Source: a virus. Taken from it: a DNA stretch of 64,000 nucleotides. Under the pieces are notes generated by a model. That model saw nothing but the letters and a program-made list of their open reading frames with translations. It was not told the origin of the DNA and searched no databases. The position numbers and the translations under genes were made by a program. Where the stretch lies: IMG/VR virus record IMGVR_UViG_3300045988_129289; one strand, 5' to 3'. Below, piece after piece: positions 14,909 through 41,312 of this stretch (positions are counted from its first letter, which is position 1; every line of letters begins with the position of its first letter).

Positions 14909-14947
14909 GGTGTGATGGTCACAAATAGAGTTCGATTCTCTATACAC
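14909..14947 (+). ncRNA. truncated tRNA-like minihelix (acceptor-like stem + T-arm, no anticodon arm)
   Basis: GTGTG ... TACAC closing stem around ATGGTCACAAA connector and TAGAG-TTCGATT-CTCTA T-arm-like hairpin. Confidence 0.35.
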
Positions 14948-15044
14948 TAACTAATTTCCTGTCAAGCCTCTTAACAATGCTCAAATCGTACAGGACCATT
15001 TTAAAAATAATAAGTATGACATACAAATTTCTTTAAGAAAGGAT

Positions 15045-15129
15045 GGCTCTATGGGGGAATGGTAGACCCGGCGGACTTAAAATCCTCTGGTCAGTAATGA
15101 CCGTGCGAGTTCGACTCTCGCTAGAGCTA
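15045..15129 (+). tRNA. tRNA-Leu (anticodon UAA), class II
   Basis: acceptor GGCTCTA/TAGAGCT, anticodon loop CTTAAAA, extra arm TGGTCAGTAATGACCG, T arm GCGAG-TTCGACT-CTCGC, A73. Confidence 0.8.
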
Positions 15130-15156
15130 CAAACATTAACATAAAAAAGAAAAGAA

Positions 15157-15702
15157 ATGGATTATAGAGATAAATCAATTCACAAGTTGTTGATTTCAAT
15201 AACTGATTCTTATAAGAAAGCTTCTACTAATAGTTCTAGATATTATCAAAAAGGATCTACTACGATTAGGTTTTCTGATCATTACAGCGAACATGAGTTC
15301 GTTGATTTTGAAATAGTCAAGCTTTCCAACGGCTGCTATTATTTTACTGACAAGGACTTTAAAATAACTTCTTGCTTTTATAAGGAAGATATTGTAGGAT
15401 TTTTAAAAAGTTACTTTAGTATAAGGGATTTATTTGCAGGGCATATAAAGAGCTTACTAAAGTCTCTCAAAAAGACTAACAATGAGCTTCAAAAAGCTTA
15501 CAGAGATCTGAACAGTGCTAAGCTGCGATCAGACTTGGAAGTAGCTGACTCTATATATGAGGAGAACAAAAGTCTAAAGAAACAATGCAAGACTATAAAG
15601 GTAAAACTAAATGACCTTAAGGGAAAGCTACTGAGCAACAACAAGGCTTTACTGAAAGCATCAAATGTAATAGAAGACGCCATCAATATTATTAAAATAT
15701 AA
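15157..15702 (+). CDS. hypothetical coiled-coil protein
   Basis: ORF track 181 aa. Confidence 0.55.
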   Translation: MDYRDKSIHKLLISITDSYKKASTNSSRYYQKGSTTIRFSDHYSEHEFVDFEIVKLSNGCYYFTDKDFKITSCFYKEDIVGFLKSYFSIRDLFAGHIKSLLKSLKKTNNELQKAYRDLNSAKLRSDLEVADSIYEENKSLKKQCKTIKVKLNDLKGKLLSNNKALLKASNVIEDAINIIKI

Positions 15703-15835
15703 TATTATGGATTTACGGGAACTAAGGTATTTGTTAGATTATGCTAGGAAGCATAATATGATGCAGCAACCATTTATTAGTGTTTATCAAGCTTGGTCTA
15801 AGGAATTAGAAGAAGCTTATTCCAATTAAAGGTTT

Positions 15836-15920
15836 GGGGCTATGGGGAAACTGGCTAGACCCAGCAGACTTAGGATCTGCCGCTGAAATACGCATGTGAG
15901 TTCGAATCTCACTAGCCCCA
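15836..15920 (+). tRNA. tRNA-Leu (anticodon UAG), class II
   Basis: acceptor GGGGCTA/TAGCCCC, anticodon stem GCAGA/TCTGC loop CTTAGGA, extra arm CGCTGAAATACGC, T arm GTGAG-TTCGAAT-CTCAC. Confidence 0.85.
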
Positions 15921-15936
15921 CAATAAAATAACTAAT

Positions 15937-16284
15937 ATGAAGAAAATCTTATGTGCTTTGCTACTTGTACTCATAAGTACAAGTGTGTTCTCCCAGAAAA
16001 TAGTAAGAGCAAAAGGATGTTATGATTCTAATAATACCCCCTATATAAAAACAAAAGTATTAAATAATACATGGAAAGATATAGTTTGTATAGTATTCAC
16101 AATTGAATACGATTTCCCTTCTAAGTATGATACTAATCGTTACAAGGAGGCTGTAGTAAAAACCTATATAGAATCTGGCACATCCAAAATAATTAATTAT
16201 TATCCATTACCGAATTACTATAGACCTTTAAGGCAAACCTTAAGAAGATTAATATTCTCTGATGGAAGTTATAAAAATTTTTAA
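15937..16284 (+). CDS. small secreted protein (signal peptide)
   Basis: ORF track 115 aa, MKKILCALLLVLISTSVFSQ. Confidence 0.5.
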   Translation: MKKILCALLLVLISTSVFSQKIVRAKGCYDSNNTPYIKTKVLNNTWKDIVCIVFTIEYDFPSKYDTNRYKEAVVKTYIESGTSKIINYYPLPNYYRPLRQTLRRLIFSDGSYKNF

Positions 16285-38227: not shown

Positions 38228-38229
38228 AT

Positions 38230-39240
38230 ATGAGTATTAAAAAGAAGGCACAATATTTAGGTGAGGGAGTAAATTGGTTAAAAGGTCATGGTTAGATGAT
38301 ACCAGATTACTTCGGAAACCTGATGAGACGAATTGGAGGAGGTGAGAGAGCTGTAGTTAGAGCTAGGCAAGCTTCTCCAGAATTAATTGCATCTAGAAAT
38401 AGTTAGAGAGGGGCTGAAATGAGTCATAATCTTGCAGCTCAAAGATATAAAGAAGCTTAGCAAGCAGAAAGTAAATTATTAGACAATACTAAAAACTGGA
38501 AGTAGCCTAATAGTAAAAGAAACGTAAAGAGAGTAAATGATGCTATGCGAAAAACAGATGAAGCTGAGAGAAATGCAATAACTGCATCATAGAGAAGTAG
38601 AGAAGCCTAGGAAGCTTTCAATAATACTAAGAGACAGGTTACTAATGATGCCCTAAAACAAGTTAGGAATAAGGGTATTAAAAGAACTCTTAAAACCGCT
38701 GGACTTGTAGGTGGTCTTGGTACTGGAGCTTATCTAGTTATTCCGAGAAATTCTAAATCACCTAGTGCTGCAGAGGAGACTCCATAGCAATATATGTATA
38801 GTCCAAATAATGGTTGGCAGGAGTGGAATCAGGAAACTGGTTAGTATGAAAATCAACAGCAAGGATTCGGAATAGATAGGTATGGAAATACTAACTACTA
38901 CGATGGAACAAATTGGCTAACTCCTGATCAGTATCTACAAGGCAGTAATGGTTACATATATAATAAACAAACTGGACAAATTATAGGTACGGCTGATGAC
39001 ACTATGGAAGCGTATAATAATGGCTATGACAATGTGTTTGATTATCGCGCTGCTAAAGCTGGTTACAATAGCCCAGAAGCTGTCAAGCAACTTCAAGAGA
39101 AACTTGGAATAAATGCTGATGGTAAGTGGGGACAGCAAACTTAGGATGCTTTCAATAAGACTGTTTCAAATTGGGCATAGCAATATGATCCTAACAGTTT
39201 ATTCTCTATATACTAGAGAAAGATGCAATTCGGATACTAA
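38230..39240 (+). CDS. hypothetical virion protein with C-terminal PG_binding_1-like peptidoglycan-binding repeat, TAG-recoded
   Basis: ATG 38230 to TAA 39238; ~17 in-frame TAG; GYNSPEAVKQLQEKLGINADGKWGQQTQDAFNK. Confidence 0.55.
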
Positions 39241-39253
39241 TGAAAAAAAAAAA

Positions 39254-40456
39254 ATGACACAAATAAATAAAGCACAGAGAGGAGCAATTCTCTAGTTTGG
39301 TAAGTTAGTAAATAAGGCTAAGTTAGCTTCAAATAGATTAGGGAGGATCTTTACGGGTGAAGCTGCAGCTGAAAAGAAATTAAACAAGCTTGCAAAGTAG
39401 AAAATATTGTAGTAGACAGGTAGTTGGAGACCTACATAGAAGATGAGAGAAATCAACTTAGAAGGGAAGAAGCAGTCCATCAGGGACGCAAAAGCCATGA
39501 GGAGTGCAGCTTCTAAGGCTGAACTCAAATGGATGTAGGAAAACTCTGATAAAGCTACTAAGGTTTACAAGAGTGGCGCTAGAGAATTTGGAGGGGATGC
39601 TAATAGACTCACTTTATAGAAAGTAAGGTAGGATGCAATGAAACCCTTCCTTGCGGATGAGGCTAAAAGAATACGTAGAAATAGGGCTGTAGCAACTGTC
39701 TTGCCTGTAGGTTTAGGCATTCCTGCCTACAACATACTAACTGGGAAAATATATGATAATGTATTTCCCTATGGATATTAGGATAAAAAGGCAAGTGATA
39801 AAGACAAGGGAGAAAGTTGGGTTGCGCGCATAAAAAAGTTTGGACCAGCTGCCTTTGGTATAAAATCAGATGCTAGAAAGCATTTTGACTAGATTGCTGC
39901 AGCAGATTTATCTGATCTAAAATAGAGGAAAGAAGCTGAAAGAATTTACTAGGGAGACTCCATTTTGCAGTACCCAATGGGTGGTGCTTCTTTGGAATAT
40001 GTATAGAATCGATTTAGAAATAGAACCGATTTCAATGACTTATATCTAGGAAGACCGCAAACATATAATACACTGGTTCCAAATACTGAGTATTAGTCAG
40101 TAAACTCTCATGAAAACCCTAAGATAGTTACTTATACTTTTGCAGACCCAATAATTAGGAATATGTTAAGAAGTCAAGGAAGGGATTTCAATCTCAAATA
40201 GAATGATATTGACCCTGATAAAGGCTATGGAGCAAGAGCAGTATCTGACCATAATGGGATTTTCGGAGATTTCGGAATAGTTAAAAATTAGTAGAATGGA
40301 GCTGGTAGATATAAAGAAGATTGGGATTTTCCATTATCTGGATTAACTCATAAGCTGGGATTAACTAGCTAGGTTATAATAGCTGATACTATACCTGGTA
40401 ATTAGCCAAGATAGAGTTATAGATTTGGAGAACATCACAATAGATCATAGATGTAA
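39254..40456 (+). CDS. hypothetical virion protein, TAG-recoded
   Basis: ATG 39254 to TAA 40454; >20 in-frame TAG (checked at 39293, 40448). Confidence 0.55.
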
Positions 40457-40471
40457 AAAAAAAAAATTAAT

Positions 40472-41272
40472 ATGAAGAAGATAATTAGATCAATTGGAAT
40501 GGCATTTATAGTATATTTGTCAATTTCCTTTATAGGGGCTTGCTTTGAGTTGTCTCTATTTATTTTTAGAGAGACCTTCTTAGATGAATTAATCTATTCA
40601 TTTGGAATCTCTATTGGACTACCAGATCTTATAGGGGAATATATTACTCCTAAATCAATTCCATGGGTAGAGGATATTGAAACTTCTATAGTATTTGGTA
40701 TTCCTTTGATAGGATCTCTGATATATCTTATTATGTCTTTGAGAAGAAAAAGTTTATTGATATTGCTATGTCTATTTGCATTACCAATATCAGCAAAGGA
40801 ACCTATTAAAGCGATCCCAAAGGGTGGTAGATATGCTATCCTTGTGGATTTCTCAAAGCCCTCTGGAGAAGATAGATTTAAGATATATGATTGTAAATCC
40901 CATTGTATCATATATTCTAGCGTGGTTCAGCATGGCAATGGGGGAGGAAGTACGAAGGAGAAGCCAGTATTTAGTAATAGGATAGGAAGTAACTGTTCTA
41001 GTCTCGGTTTATATAAAATCACTGGTTTTGGAAGAATGAATAGCTTTCCTATTAACTGCTTTAGACTTAAAGGGCTAAGCAGCACTAATTCTAATGCAGA
41101 AAAGAGAGGCATTGTTATTCATCCCACACTTAGTAGTTCTCTTCCATTTAAAATGCGTTACCTCCCATTGAGTGATGAAAGTCATGGTTGTTTTGGAGTA
41201 AGCTTTGAAACAATGAGGGTAATACGTAAATTGTATGGTAAAGGCGTAATATATTTATATGCTTTCCATTAA
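40472..41272 (+). CDS. L,D-transpeptidase-like (YkuD-type) protein with N-terminal TM helices
   Basis: ORF track 266 aa; GIVIHP...SHGCFGVS resembles YkuD catalytic HG...SHGC motif. Confidence 0.5.
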   Translation: MKKIIRSIGMAFIVYLSISFIGACFELSLFIFRETFLDELIYSFGISIGLPDLIGEYITPKSIPWVEDIETSIVFGIPLIGSLIYLIMSLRRKSLLILLCLFALPISAKEPIKAIPKGGRYAILVDFSKPSGEDRFKIYDCKSHCIIYSSVVQHGNGGGSTKEKPVFSNRIGSNCSSLGLYKITGFGRMNSFPINCFRLKGLSSTNSNAEKRGIVIHPTLSSSLPFKMRYLPLSDESHGCFGVSFETMRVIRKLYGKGVIYLYAFH

Positions 41273-41273
41273 C

Positions 41274-41312
41274 TCTATATGGTATTCGAGGAGGTTCGAT
41301 TCCTCCTTAGAG
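41274..41312 (+). ncRNA. truncated tRNA-like minihelix (CTCTA/TAGAG stem + 7-bp T-arm GAGGAGG-TTCGATT-CCTCCTT)
   Basis: begins 2 nt after stop 41272; could double as terminator/processing site. Confidence 0.35.

What the first reader, a model, noticed from the sequence alone, without database searches (positions are those of the whole stretch)
14909..41312. Family of truncated tRNA-like acceptor/T-arm minihelices
Four elements (14909-14947, 20170-20214, 34245-34290, 41274-41312) share one architecture: a 5-7 bp closing stem, a 10-15 nt connector often containing ATGG/GTGG, and a hairpin whose 7-nt loop is a canonical T-loop (TTCGAAT or TTCGATT). An isolated T-arm-like hairpin ATACG-TTCGATT-CGTAT is at 9051-9067. 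They sit at gene boundaries (after the AAA+ ATPase, before the acidic repeat gene, 2 nt after the stop of 40472-41272). This resembles tRNA top-half mimics that serve as RNase P/RNase Z processing sites (tRNA punctuation), Y-RNA modules, or CCA-adding/EF-Tu decoys. They are not explained by any protein or full tRNA call.
Basis: seen in the sequence. Interest (0 to 1): 0.7.

Follow-up and report, generated by a model that had tools for sequence, protein, structure and literature searches.

The report
Phage tRNA-like minihelix RNA elements
Four ~42-47-nt elements in this gut phage are real, conserved tRNA "top halves" without an anticodon arm; two belong to a previously uncatalogued family found in many unrelated viruses, and they most likely let the phage borrow the host's tRNA-cutting enzymes to cut its own transcripts at exact places.

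Summary
E1 (14908-14949), E2 (20169-20215), E3 (34246-34289) and E4 (41272-41313) each have a 6-7 bp closing stem, a connector carrying a D-loop-like GG, and a canonical T arm. All lie on the coding strand between genes. None is a tRNA call.

E1 and E4 match a family I found in at least 70 unrelated IMG/VR viral contigs. The consensus is stem-(A)AUGGU..-T arm-stem-ACUAA. Covariation is strong (92% of cells paired against 58% shuffled). The family is absent from Rfam 15, and a single consensus-pattern scan found it almost absent from 185,579 bacterial genomes. It mostly lies far from any tRNA gene.

E2 and E3 keep a small D-like hairpin and are lineage-specific. Each sits 4-6 nt after a repeated structured RNA ("M"), exactly where tRNA-Pro, tRNA-Cys and tRNA-Trp sit after other M copies.

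The best reading is that these are RNase P/RNase Z handles, a phage version of tRNA punctuation or plant mitochondrial t-elements. They would release flanking small RNAs and define mRNA ends. This is inferred, because no expression data were available.

Rivals are trans-acting decoys or Y-RNA-like modules (a Ro60-like gene lies nearby), 3' protective caps, tRNA remnants and DNA sites.

The parts
14908..14949 (+). E1: minihelix with a 7-bp closing stem (2 G.U), connector AUGGUCACAAA, T arm UAGAG-UUCGAUU-CUCUA, then A-C-UAA
   Evidence: R2, a model built only from unrelated viral contigs, scores it 47.5 bits, E 2e-12. Orthologues occur in L007, L009, L010, L015, L011, L012 and L023 with compensatory changes in both stems.
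14874..14899 (+). Hairpin 8 nt upstream of E1 (GGAUAUUCUC-AAUUG-GAGAAUACUCC), conserved with covariation in relatives
14958..14995 (+). Orphan abiF-motif RNA, flanked by E1 (8 nt upstream) and tRNA-Leu 15045-15130 (49 nt downstream)
   Evidence: Rfam RF03085, 50.1 bits against a gathering score of 37. The motif acts as an RNA antitoxin of AbiF (PMC12373285).
20111..20164 (+). M RNA copy (GAGAGCU-U-CAGCAA...AGUUCUC-UG) ending 4 nt before E2
20169..20215 (+). E2: 7-bp closing stem, D-like hairpin UUCC-UCAGUG-GGAA, T arm with loop UUCGAAU
   Evidence: Conserved in L008, L009 and L010 with only pair-compatible changes. Rfam tRNA scores 12.2 bits against a gathering score of 29. No hit to R1 or R2.
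20255..20319 (+). M RNA copy between E2 and tRNA-Pro (20324-20413)
34089..34242 (+). Long M RNA copy (GAGCACU-UG-CAGCAA...GGUGCUC-UG) ending 3 nt before E3
34246..34289 (+). E3: 6-bp closing stem, D-like hairpin GAG-UUAAGG-CUC, T arm AGAGG-UUCGAAU-CCUCU; lies 31 nt before the ATG at 34321
   Evidence: Conserved in L017-L020 with pair-compatible changes. R1 scores it only 13 bits.
41272..41313 (+). E4: 6-bp closing stem plus a U.U layer, connector UAUGGUAUUCGA, T arm GGAGG-UUCGAUU-CCUCC. Its first base is the last A of the stop codon TAA 41270-41272. It lies 24 nt before the ATG at 41338.
   Evidence: R2 scores it 30.3 bits, E 9e-7. Orthologues in L017-L020 show G-C to C-G and A-U to G-C swaps and have different upstream genes.
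16262..18043 (+). Context gene: Ro60-like protein (DUF2828 + DUF7788/vWA), lying between E1 and E2
   Evidence: Pfam. Foldseek search of the AF2 model against the PDB: the top 6 hits are Ro60, E 1.5e-5 to 3.6e-4, over 528-597 aligned columns.

Best explanation
E1-E4 are selected, tRNA-derived RNA structures. Each is an acceptor-like stem stacked on a T arm, about 11-12 layers in all. A D-loop remnant (AUGG / GG) could dock on the T loop to rebuild the tRNA 'elbow'. There is no anticodon arm.

The elements are transcribed as part of the phage's polycistronic + strand transcripts. The host's tRNA-maturation enzymes then treat them as pre-tRNAs. RNase P cuts at the 5' edge. RNase Z, or RNase E plus exonucleases, cuts after the discriminator. 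The encoded N73-C74 is completed to CCA.

Each element therefore works as a compact punctuation mark.
- It releases flanking small RNAs: M-E2-M-tRNA-Pro, M-E3, and E1-abiF RNA-tRNA-Leu.
- It defines mRNA ends: E4 sits at the stop codon of 40472-41272 and 24 nt before the next ATG, and E3 sits 31 nt before an ATG.

Shown: the structure, conservation, covariation, strand, position, and family membership of E1 and E4.

Inferred: transcription, cleavage by RNase P/Z, CCA addition, and the benefit to the phage.
For: Structure and selection
- The family alignment A3 (62 sequences) has 91.8% of cells paired against 57.8% in shuffles. The covariation score is 0.797 against 0.154. Eleven of 12 pairs show double changes, and slid controls give 35-55% paired.
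- The two T-stem pairs that were not fixed by the search pattern pair in 99.7% of cells, with four pair types.
- R2, a model built without any sequence of this phage clade, finds E1 (47.5 bits) and E4 (30.3 bits) full length. It matches real tRNAs only partially, at 18 bits or less.

tRNA-like details
- G53-C61 is invariant and the T loop is UUCGAUU.
- The connector AAUGGU(U/A)A equals a D loop, as in this phage's tRNA-Gln.
- In L094 and L117 the AUGG sits in the loop of a small hairpin, as the GG does in E2 and E3.
- The downstream consensus is A-C-U-A-A. Most of this phage's tRNA genes likewise end ..N73-C.

Not remnants
- 57 of 73 family loci hold no tRNA gene within about 9 kb.
- One consensus pattern found only 4 hits in 185,579 bacterial genomes, all on short MAG contigs.

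RNA level
- 53 loci against 12 are co-oriented with the long ORFs.
- The elements are intergenic. Many start 3-11 nt after a stop codon or shortly after a hairpin.

Position equivalence with tRNAs
- M copies end 3-8 nt before tRNA-Pro, tRNA-Cys, tRNA-Trp, E2 and E3.
- A stem ends 2-12 nt upstream of 22 of the 27 tRNAs and elements, against 41% of random positions.
- No sigma-70 promoter or terminator signal lies next to the elements.

Precedent
- Plant mitochondrial t-elements are cut by RNase P and RNase Z (PMC1920247).
- A tRNA-like YrlA with a 7-bp acceptor is cut by RNase P and gains CCA (PMC4201824).
Against: - There are no expression or end-mapping data, so cleavage is wholly inferred.
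- The host and its RNase P/Z preferences are unknown.
- The family alignment was seeded with a pattern taken from E1 and filtered for at least 5 closing pairs. The closing-stem statistics are therefore inflated. The bimodal stem-length distribution and the unselected T-stem pairs argue that the signal is real.
- E2 and E3 are conserved only among close relatives (91-97% identity in flanking proteins). They show one-sided changes only, so their structural support is weak.
- RNase P cleavage a few nt after a stop codon would leave an unprotected mRNA 3' end unless a hairpin precedes it. At E4 it would even remove the last base of the stop codon.
- A conserved ACUAA tail and the virus-only distribution are not required by a simple processing role.
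Confidence: 0.5

Rival explanations
1. The excised ~40-nt, CCA-ended minihelices are the functional product and act in trans. They could be decoys or inhibitors for host antiphage enzymes that attack the tRNA acceptor end or elbow. They could instead be the tRNA-like module of a Y-RNA-like particle built around the phage's Ro60-like protein. For E2 and E3 this could be as bipartite M+minihelix RNAs.
For: - The distribution is virus-restricted, and the family conserves more than a cleavage signal needs: AUGGU, the exact T loop, and the ACUAA tail.
- A Ro60-like gene lies between E1 and E2.
- Relatives carry M RNAs with an embedded permuted tRNA-like body that gives sub-threshold YrlA hits.
- Bacterial Y RNAs mimic tRNA and lie next to Ro60 genes, also in phages (PMC4201824).
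- The adjacent orphan abiF antitoxin-type RNA shows that this region carries RNA-based counter-defence candidates.
Against: - There is no conserved acceptor-stem identity, so specific aminoacylation or protein recognition of the stem is unlikely.
- A decoy against catalytic toxins would need very high copy number.
- E1-E4 lack a Ro-binding stem and give no YrlA hit.
- Most family members are in phages for which no Ro60-like gene was looked for or seen.
Confidence: 0.2
2. The elements stay attached to the upstream mRNA as a 3' tRNA-like cap, cut only on their 3' side. This would protect highly expressed messages from 3' exonucleases, or influence termination and ribosome recycling at the adjacent stop codon, like the 3' tRNA-like structures of plant RNA viruses.
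For: - About 20 of 74 family members start at most 36 nt after the stop codon of the upstream gene, many at 3-11 nt. One follows an HK97-type capsid-like gene (L046).
- E4 overlaps its stop codon.
- The N73-C74 tail allows CCA completion.
Against: - RNase P normally removes anything 5' of such a structure.
- E2 and E3 follow non-coding M RNAs rather than genes.
- The group with the 76-aa gene has a separate hairpin between the gene and the element, which already provides 3' protection.
Confidence: 0.15
3. The elements are non-functional leftovers of tRNA genes, produced by internal deletions in a fast-changing tRNA region.
For: - tRNA content differs even between near-identical relatives.
- True remnants exist: a tRNA-Glu 5' half at 10406-10438 followed by a tandem repeat, and an orphan T arm at 9055-9071 at the end of a 132-nt insert.
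- L012:5603 carries an intermediate form with the E2-type acceptor, a D arm and no anticodon arm.
- E2 and E3 are seen only in close relatives.
Against: - Both stems of E1 and E4 show compensatory changes across clades and across unrelated viruses.
- The same architecture recurs in at least 70 contigs, mostly without neighbouring tRNAs.
- E4 is retained at the edge of a conserved gene while everything upstream is replaced.
- The same part of the tRNA is missing every time.
Confidence: 0.1
4. The elements act as DNA: attachment or recombination sites (tRNA-type att sites) that mark the borders of exchangeable gene cassettes.
For: E1 and E4 sit exactly where conserved sequence meets variable sequence in relatives. 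Many integrases use the T-arm/acceptor part of tRNA genes.
Against: - The 5' strand of the closing stem covaries with the 3' strand, which an att site does not need.
- G.U pairs exist on the + strand only, and there is a strong strand bias with transcription.
- Bacterial genomes hold no matching target.
- No integrase is seen next to the elements.
Confidence: 0.05

Closest known systems
Plant mitochondrial t-elements (PMC1920247)
   Same: Non-canonical tRNA-like structures recognised by the GGTTCRANYCC T-arm motif. They are embedded in longer transcripts at mRNA 5' or 3' ends. They are cut by RNase P and RNase Z, and the excised element can carry non-encoded C residues.
   Different: t-elements are organellar and heterogeneous, and usually retain more of the cloverleaf. 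They have no conserved AUGGU connector or ACUAA tail. They are not a sequence family shared across many genomes. Cleavage is shown for them and is not shown here.
mascRNA / MEN-beta tRNA-like elements and mitochondrial tRNA punctuation (own knowledge)
   Same: A tRNA-shaped module inside a long transcript is used to create ends through RNase P and RNase Z. Incomplete stop codons arise at cleavage sites in mitochondria, which parallels E4 overlapping its stop codon.
   Different: These are eukaryotic. mascRNA keeps a reduced anticodon arm. There is no sequence relationship.
Bacterial Y RNA YrlA (RF02553; PMC4201824)
   Same: A tRNA-derived module with T arm, D-loop features and an acceptor-like stem. 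It is encoded near a Ro60 gene, also in phages. M. smegmatis YrlA is cut by RNase P and receives CCA.
   Different: In YrlA the acceptor is closed by a loop, and the RNA ends form a long Ro60-binding stem carrying the GNCGAAN0-1G motif. E1-E4 have an open acceptor, no such stem and no YrlA hit. The YrlA-like layout is seen instead in M RNAs of relatives, at 27-34 bits against a gathering score of 69.
Synthetic acceptor/T-arm minihelix substrates of RNase P, CCA-adding enzyme and some aminoacyl-tRNA synthetases (own knowledge; ruler principle in PMC4919913, abstract only)
   Same: An 11-12-layer acceptor-T stack with a T loop, which is the minimal unit these enzymes recognise.
   Different: Those are laboratory constructs without a D-loop remnant. 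The phage elements are natural, conserved and carry a GG connector.
tmRNA tRNA-like domain and 3' tRNA-like structures of plant RNA viruses
   Same: tRNA mimicry without a decoding anticodon arm. Viral use of a tRNA-shaped 3' module.
   Different: tmRNA needs G3:U70 and a tag reading frame. Plant-virus structures are 3'-terminal pseudoknotted structures that are aminoacylated. Neither feature is present here.

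Membership tests
Canonical tRNA (Rfam RF00005 / ARAGORN) | Full cloverleaf with an anticodon arm; score at or above the gathering score of 29 bits | tested here: not met
   ARAGORN makes no call at any of the four elements. Rfam has no tRNA hit there at E<=10 on the whole window. E2 scores 12.2 bits in a small-region search. The connectors are only 11-16 nt.
Canonical tRNA (Rfam RF00005 / ARAGORN) | T arm: 5-bp stem closed by G53-C61, with a 7-nt loop UUCRANY | tested here: met
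   G-C is present at the loop-closing pair in 62 of 62 family sequences.
Canonical tRNA (Rfam RF00005 / ARAGORN) | 7-bp acceptor stem followed by a discriminator (N73) and C74/CCA | tested here: met
   The closing stems are 6-7 bp. The family consensus after the stem is A-C (73% and 76%), like this phage's tRNA genes. CCA is not encoded.
Viral AUGGU-connector minihelix family (defined here, models R1/R2) | Full-length match to a covariance model built from unrelated viral contigs: 6-7 bp closing stem, (A)AUGGU connector, 5-bp T stem, UUCGAUU loop, ACUAA tail | tested here: met
   With R2, E1 scores 47.5 bits (E 2e-12) and E4 scores 30.3 bits (E 9e-7). The result for E1 is partly circular, because the search pattern came from E1. 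E4 does not match that pattern, so it is an independent test.
Viral AUGGU-connector minihelix family (defined here, models R1/R2) | The same model applied to E2 and E3 | tested here: not met
   E2 has no hit and E3 scores 13.2 bits with R1. They share the plan (closing stem, GG, T arm) but carry a D-like hairpin. Similar hairpin variants exist in L094 and L117.
t-elements / tRNA punctuation (processing signals) | tRNA-like fold carrying the GGTTCRANYCC-type motif inside a longer transcript, at gene or RNA borders | tested here: met
   The motif and fold are present. The elements are intergenic, on the same strand as all genes, and at the borders of genes or M RNAs. Co-transcription is inferred from the lack of nearby promoter or terminator matches.
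t-elements / tRNA punctuation (processing signals) | Cleavage by RNase P at the 5' edge and by RNase Z at the 3' edge; RNA ends coincide with the element borders | not testable with these tools
   No transcriptome or biochemical data are available.
Y RNA / YrlA (RF02553) | The 5' and 3' ends form a stem with the Ro60-binding motif (GNCGAAN0-1G), and the acceptor-like stem is closed by a loop | tested here: not met
   The ends of E1-E4 form the acceptor itself. The window has no YrlA hit at E<=10. The defining features are taken from PMC4201824.
Y RNA / YrlA (RF02553) | Encoded close to a Ro60 (TROVE + vWA) gene | tested here: inconclusive
   Gene 16262-18043 lies 1.3 kb after E1 and 2.1 kb before E2. 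Its AF2 model has a mean pLDDT of 62 and a poorly predicted N-terminus. The top 6 PDB hits are Ro60 over the full length, with TM 0.33-0.43. Sequence and profile searches of the PDB found nothing.
tmRNA tRNA-like domain | Alanine identity pair G3:U70 in the acceptor, and a linked tag reading frame | tested here: not met
   The acceptor pairs vary freely with no conserved G3:U70. No tag ORF is attached. The phage's tmRNA is elsewhere (about 21760-22094).

The most novel reading that the evidence does not exclude
The minihelices are a virus-specific class of small tRNA mimics. After excision and CCA addition, the ~40-nt RNAs would act in trans. They could soak up or inhibit host defence enzymes that target the tRNA acceptor end or elbow. 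They could instead serve as the tRNA-like partner module of a phage Ro60-like/M-RNA particle, a phage Y-RNA system. The M RNAs share their conserved layout (GA-stem, (C)UUACAGCAA, stem-UC-UG) with the Class I RNAs so far thought unique to dictyostelid amoebae.
Probability: 0.2. Interest if true: 0.85.

Novelty: new variant of a known kind. Interest (0 to 1): 0.72.

Why it matters
If the reading is right, many phages carry a roughly 40-nt portable module that recruits the host's universal tRNA-processing enzymes to cut viral transcripts at chosen positions. That would be a bacterial-virus counterpart of mitochondrial tRNA punctuation and plant t-elements. It would give phages a promoter- and terminator-independent way to set the ends and stabilities of mRNAs and to release small RNAs such as antitoxin mimics and M RNAs.

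The family is absent from Rfam and is invisible to tRNA finders, so it is currently unannotated in viral genomes. It is small, sharply defined and directly testable in vitro. It could also serve as a natural minimal processing tag for multiplexed RNA expression in bacteria.

The surrounding region also holds a Ro60-like protein, the multi-copy M RNA, a tmRNA, group I introns, suppressor tRNAs and an orphan abiF RNA. That makes this phage clade a good model for RNA-centred host takeover.

Tried and rejected
- **3' exons of intron-split tRNAs.** Many orphan T arms in relatives are preceded by group I intron cores (aaggatagtc / gacatagtc) or are tmRNA 3' ends. E1-E4 have no such upstream sequence, and each has its own adjacent 5' strand.
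- **Known RNA family.** Rfam at gathering and at E<=10 gave no hit for the window, a small region, six unrelated loci or three relatives.
- **Literature.** Searches for phage minihelix, truncated-tRNA or t-element-like RNAs found no description.
- **Cultured phages.** BLAST of the consensus returned only ordinary or unannotated tRNAs, as in S-T4 and RaK2. The conserved 76-aa upstream protein has no match in cultured phages.
- **Independent transcription units.** No sigma-70 promoter or terminator enrichment lies near the elements. The host promoter type is unknown.
- **Thermodynamic stability alone.** Z-scores of -0.9 to -2.1 are uninformative for such short RNAs.
- **M as a known ribozyme or a promoter.** No ribozyme family matches. 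P1 covaries, with G.U pairs only on the + strand.
- **CGTCGT... 9055-9071 hairpin as a family member.** Rejected. It has no closing stem, and it ends a 132-nt insert that is absent in L015.
- **Sequence or profile link of DUF2828 to solved structures.** Nothing was found. Only the fold comparison found Ro60.

Full report
**Setting**

The window is part of a roughly 175-kb uncultured phage. Its relatives are the IMG/VR contigs fetched as L001-L023, and distant hits come from human faecal phage records. GC content is 36% and all genes lie on the + strand. Two blocks of genes, 1-3997 and 36938-40456, are full of in-frame TAG codons, and there are suppressor tRNA-CTA genes. The region from 4.5 to 42.5 kb carries 21 ARAGORN tRNA calls plus one found only by Rfam at 18111-18183.

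**Check of the observation**

The four elements exist as described. A scan for T-arm hairpins (at least 4 of 5 stem pairs plus a TTCRANN loop) finds 26 on the + strand and 1 on the - strand. Those outside tRNA calls include E1-E4, each with a perfectly paired 6-7 bp closing stem directly flanking the T arm and an 11-16 nt connector. GTTCGAWTC occurs 14 times against 0.43 expected.

RNAfold returns the proposed architecture as the minimum-free-energy and centroid structure for all four. For E2 and E3 it adds a 4-bp hairpin in the connector. Refined coordinates are E1 14908-14949, E2 20169-20215, E3 34246-34289 and E4 41272-41313.

The 'isolated T arm' is at 9055-9071, 4 nt from the stated position. 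It is something else: the 3' end of a 132-nt insert sitting in the loop of a hairpin that is uninterrupted in relative L015.

**Conservation in relatives**

E1 is present in every relative that covers the site. In L011 and L012 (ATPase 78-80% identical) and in L023, the T stem changes from UAGAG/CUCUA to UCGAG/CUCGA. The closing stem loses or changes pairs on both sides together, and the hairpin 8 nt upstream also covaries.

E4 is present in L017-L020 with GGAGG/CCUCC changed to GCAGG/CCUGC and an A-U to G-C swap in the closing stem. The gene upstream of it differs in each genome, while the gene downstream stays conserved.

E2 (in L008-L010) and E3 (in L017-L020) are conserved with only pair-compatible, one-sided changes. 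That is weak evidence on its own.

**A wider family**

I scanned IMG/VR with ATGGTN{3,9}GAGTTCGATTCTC, a pattern taken from E1. Twenty-one matches are ordinary tRNAs. For the rest, the number of consecutive pairs between the bases just before (A)ATGGT and just after the T stem is bimodal: 46 matches have 1-4 pairs and 74 have 5-8 pairs.

The 74 come from many unrelated contigs of 7-200 kb from diverse samples. Their consensus is a 6-7 bp stem, (A)AUGGU(U/A)AU, GUGAG-UUCGAUU-CUCAC, the complementary strand, then A-C-U-A-A.

On a 62-sequence alignment the named structure pairs 91.8% of cells (shuffles 57.8%, slid controls 35-55%). Its covariation score is 0.797 against 0.154, and 11 of 12 pairs have double changes. 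The closing-stem figures are inflated by my filter of at least 5 pairs. However, the two outer T-stem pairs were not constrained by either the pattern or the filter. They pair in 99.7% of cells using four pair types.

A covariance model built only from contigs outside this phage clade (R2) finds E1 at 47.5 bits and E4 at 30.3 bits as full-length matches. E4 does not match the seeding pattern. True tRNAs match only at the T arm, at 18 bits or less. Within the clade each genome has one E1 and one E4.

**What the family looks like biologically**

- It is not in Rfam 15.
- The commonest consensus found 4 matches in one genome each of 185,579 bacterial and archaeal species. All were on short marine MAG contigs. 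On that one pattern the family looks essentially viral.
- 57 of 73 loci have no tRNA gene in the roughly 9 kb held.
- 53 loci against 12 are co-oriented with the neighbouring long ORFs, and 72 of 74 elements lie outside long ORFs.
- About 20 of 74 begin at most 36 nt after the stop codon of the upstream gene, many at 3-11 nt. One of these follows a 405-aa capsid-like gene. About 35 belong to one phage group in which a conserved 76-aa gene and a hairpin precede the element.
- The connector AAUGGU(U/A)A is a D-loop sequence without the D stem; compare tRNA-Gln of this window.
- Variants carry CGG, UGG or AGG at the same place. In L094 and L117 the AUGG sits in the loop of a 4-bp hairpin, which links the E1/E4 type to the E2/E3 type.
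- The closing stem (6 bp plus a usually unpaired seventh layer) and the T stem (5 bp) give 11-12 stacked layers, as in tRNA.
- The A-C after the stem matches the N73-C74 with which most tRNA genes of this phage end.

**Local context**

A second repeated RNA, here called M, turned out to be relevant. Its layout is 5'-(AUA)A-GA-NNNNN-[N(U/A)ACAGCAA]-variable 30-130 nt-NNNNN-UC-UG-UUU. There are ten copies in the window: 10106-10205, 10242-10295, 10330-10398, 20111-20164, 20255-20319, 21139-21196, 23026-23093, 23122-23179, 34089-34242 and 42323-42429.

The 7-8 bp terminal stem covaries freely and has G.U pairs only on the + strand. The motif also occurs in unrelated viral contigs: 25 of 125 pattern matches have the full stem against 2-3 expected by chance. 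It is very often found 3-8 nt upstream of a tRNA.

In the window, M copies end 3-8 nt before tRNA-Pro, tRNA-Cys, tRNA-Trp, E2 and E3. E2 lies between two M copies, in the order M-E2-M-tRNA-Pro. E1 and tRNA-Leu flank a 38-nt abiF-motif RNA (50.1 bits). That RNA type neutralises the AbiF toxin (PMC12373285), and no abiF gene lies nearby.

Most tRNAs and all four elements have a hairpin or M stem ending 2-12 nt upstream: 22 of 27, against 41% of random positions. No sigma-70-type promoter or terminator signal accompanies the elements.

**Mechanism**

Taken together, the elements keep exactly the parts of a tRNA that RNase P, RNase Z and the CCA-adding enzyme read: the acceptor-T stack, the T loop, a GG that can rebuild the elbow, and N73-C74. 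They have lost the parts needed for decoding. They sit where tRNAs sit.

The most economical explanation is that they are cut out like tRNAs and thereby punctuate the phage transcripts. RNase P cleavage would leave upstream RNAs ending in a hairpin or M stem. 3' cleavage would create the 5' end of the downstream RNA: the abiF RNA, an M RNA, or the mRNA of 34321 or 41338.

At E4 the predicted RNase P site falls inside the stop codon (UA|A). This recalls mitochondrial punctuation, but in bacteria it would need an explanation.

All enzymatic steps are inferred. The precedents are plant mitochondrial t-elements (PMC1920247) and RNase P cleavage plus CCA addition of M. smegmatis YrlA (PMC4201824).

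**Rivals**

- **Pure tRNA decay.** This does happen here. There is a tRNA-Glu 5' half at 10406-10438 and the hairpin at 9055-9071. It cannot explain the covariation, the recurrence far from tRNA genes, or the retention of E4 at a recombination-prone border. It remains possible for E2 and E3.
- **A trans-acting role.** The elements could act as decoys or as Y-RNA-like modules. This gains some weight from gene 16262-18043 (Pfam DUF2828 + DUF7788). Its AlphaFold model (pLDDT 62, with a good vWA part and a poor N-terminus) finds Ro60 structures as its six best PDB matches over 528-597 columns (E 1.5e-5 to 3.6e-4, TM 0.33-0.43), ahead of hits to the vWA domain only. It also gains weight from relatives in which the variable part of an M RNA holds a permuted tRNA-like body. 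That body has a T arm, an acceptor closed by a loop, and a D arm. It gives YrlA hits of 27-34 bits against a gathering score of 69, and tmRNA_permuted hits of 48-59 bits against a gathering score of 47.
- **A 3' cap role and a DNA-site role.** Both are less likely, for the reasons listed under the rival explanations.

**Comparison with known systems and novelty**

The elements work most like t-elements, mascRNA and tRNA punctuation. They are not tRNAs, not YrlA and not tmRNA domains: in each case defining features were tested and not met. I found no description of this viral family in Rfam or in the searchable literature. I rate it a new variant of a known kind, a tRNA-like processing or mimicry element. 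It has unusually clean comparative support, but its function is untested.

Noticed in passing
window 10106-10205, 10242-10295, 10330-10398, 20111-20164, 20255-20319, 21139-21196, 23026-23093, 23122-23179, 34089-34242, 42323-42429; also L156, L173, L178, L185, L212, L229, L232 and others: Multi-copy structured RNA 'M'. It has a covarying 7-8 bp terminal stem, a conserved (C)U(U/A)ACAGCAA next to the 5' strand, a variable middle, and an end ..UC-UG-UUU. It usually lies 3-8 nt before a tRNA or in tandem arrays, and it occurs in unrelated viral contigs. It aligns end to end with the Rfam consensus of Dictyostelium Class I RNA (GaUcuC-CUUACAGCAAU...GagAuC-UG) at 17.6-30.5 bits against a gathering score of 41.5. 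Those RNAs are reported as unique to dictyostelids (PMC7919456).
   Followed up: partly
window 16262-18043: A DUF2828 + DUF7788 (vWA) protein whose predicted fold best matches Ro60 over its full length (Foldseek E 1.5e-5). This is a possible phage Ro60 homologue sitting in the middle of the tRNA/M/minihelix region. The model confidence is only moderate.
   Followed up: partly
window 14958-14995: An orphan abiF-motif RNA (Rfam 50.1 bits against a gathering score of 37) with no abiF gene nearby. It lies between E1 and tRNA-Leu. It could be an antitoxin mimic against host AbiF defence.
   Followed up: partly
window ~21760-22346; L011:4768-5283, L012:11926-12415, L008:6815-7145: A phage tmRNA. Relatives score 60-99 bits. 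The window copy has a tag ORF ending ...NMTPATAVAIAA*, and its T arm is interrupted after GGGGUU by a group I intron (22095-22346, 87 bits). I did not locate the 3' exon in the window.
   Followed up: partly
L008:6109-6219, L009:11778-11891, L015:~11523-11640, L011:4634-4762, L012:11790-11919 (the homologous window site 21139-21196 has it deleted): M RNAs whose variable part contains a circularly permuted tRNA-like body: variable loop + T arm + acceptor 3' strand, a linker, then acceptor 5' strand + D arm. This is a Y-RNA (YrlA)-like or two-piece-tmRNA-like layout.
   Followed up: partly
window 36826-36916 and 4556-4630: Two suppressor tRNA-CTA genes. The copy at 36826 lies directly upstream of the TAG-rich gene block 36938-40456. 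In the window and in L020 it carries an 11-nt insert (TGCATAGATAG) just 3' of the anticodon. The insert can pair with the anticodon region and is absent in L017 and L018.
   Followed up: partly
window 1-3997 and 36938-40456: Genes with 7-21 in-frame TAG codons each, while other genes have none. This looks like block-wise TAG recoding.
   Followed up: partly
window 10406-10490: A truncated 5' half of tRNA-Glu (the gene is intact in L007, L009 and L010), followed by an (AATAATG)n tandem repeat. This is a genuine tRNA remnant.
   Followed up: partly
window 8937-9071: A 132-nt insert ending in the T-arm-like hairpin AUACG-UUCGAUU-CGUAU (9055-9071). It lies inside the loop of a hairpin that is uninterrupted in L015. 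L007 has a different T-arm-bearing insert at the same site. Its nature is unknown.
   Followed up: partly
window 7956-8021: A 66-nt tRNA-like sequence with a perfect 8-bp acceptor and a T arm but an irregular D arm and anticodon arm (loop UUGGCUA). ARAGORN and Rfam tRNA do not call it. The only hit is a weak tmRNA match (14 bits).
   Followed up: no
window 6361-6464: A RAGATH-1 hammerhead-like match at 51.4 bits, just under the gathering score of 56.3.
   Followed up: no
relatives L007, L009, L012, L016, L023 (e.g. L007:6390, L007:15049, L012:14133-14336): Several tRNA genes (Leu-UAA, Ser and others) are split by group I introns, so tRNA finders miss them. tRNA gene content differs between genomes whose ATPase is 95-100% identical.
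   Followed up: partly
window 25926-29893 and 43438-44988: A cluster of glutamine amidotransferase, phiEco32-type COOH-NH2 ligase and amidoligase genes, and a nicotinamide phosphoribosyltransferase (NAMPT) gene.
   Followed up: no
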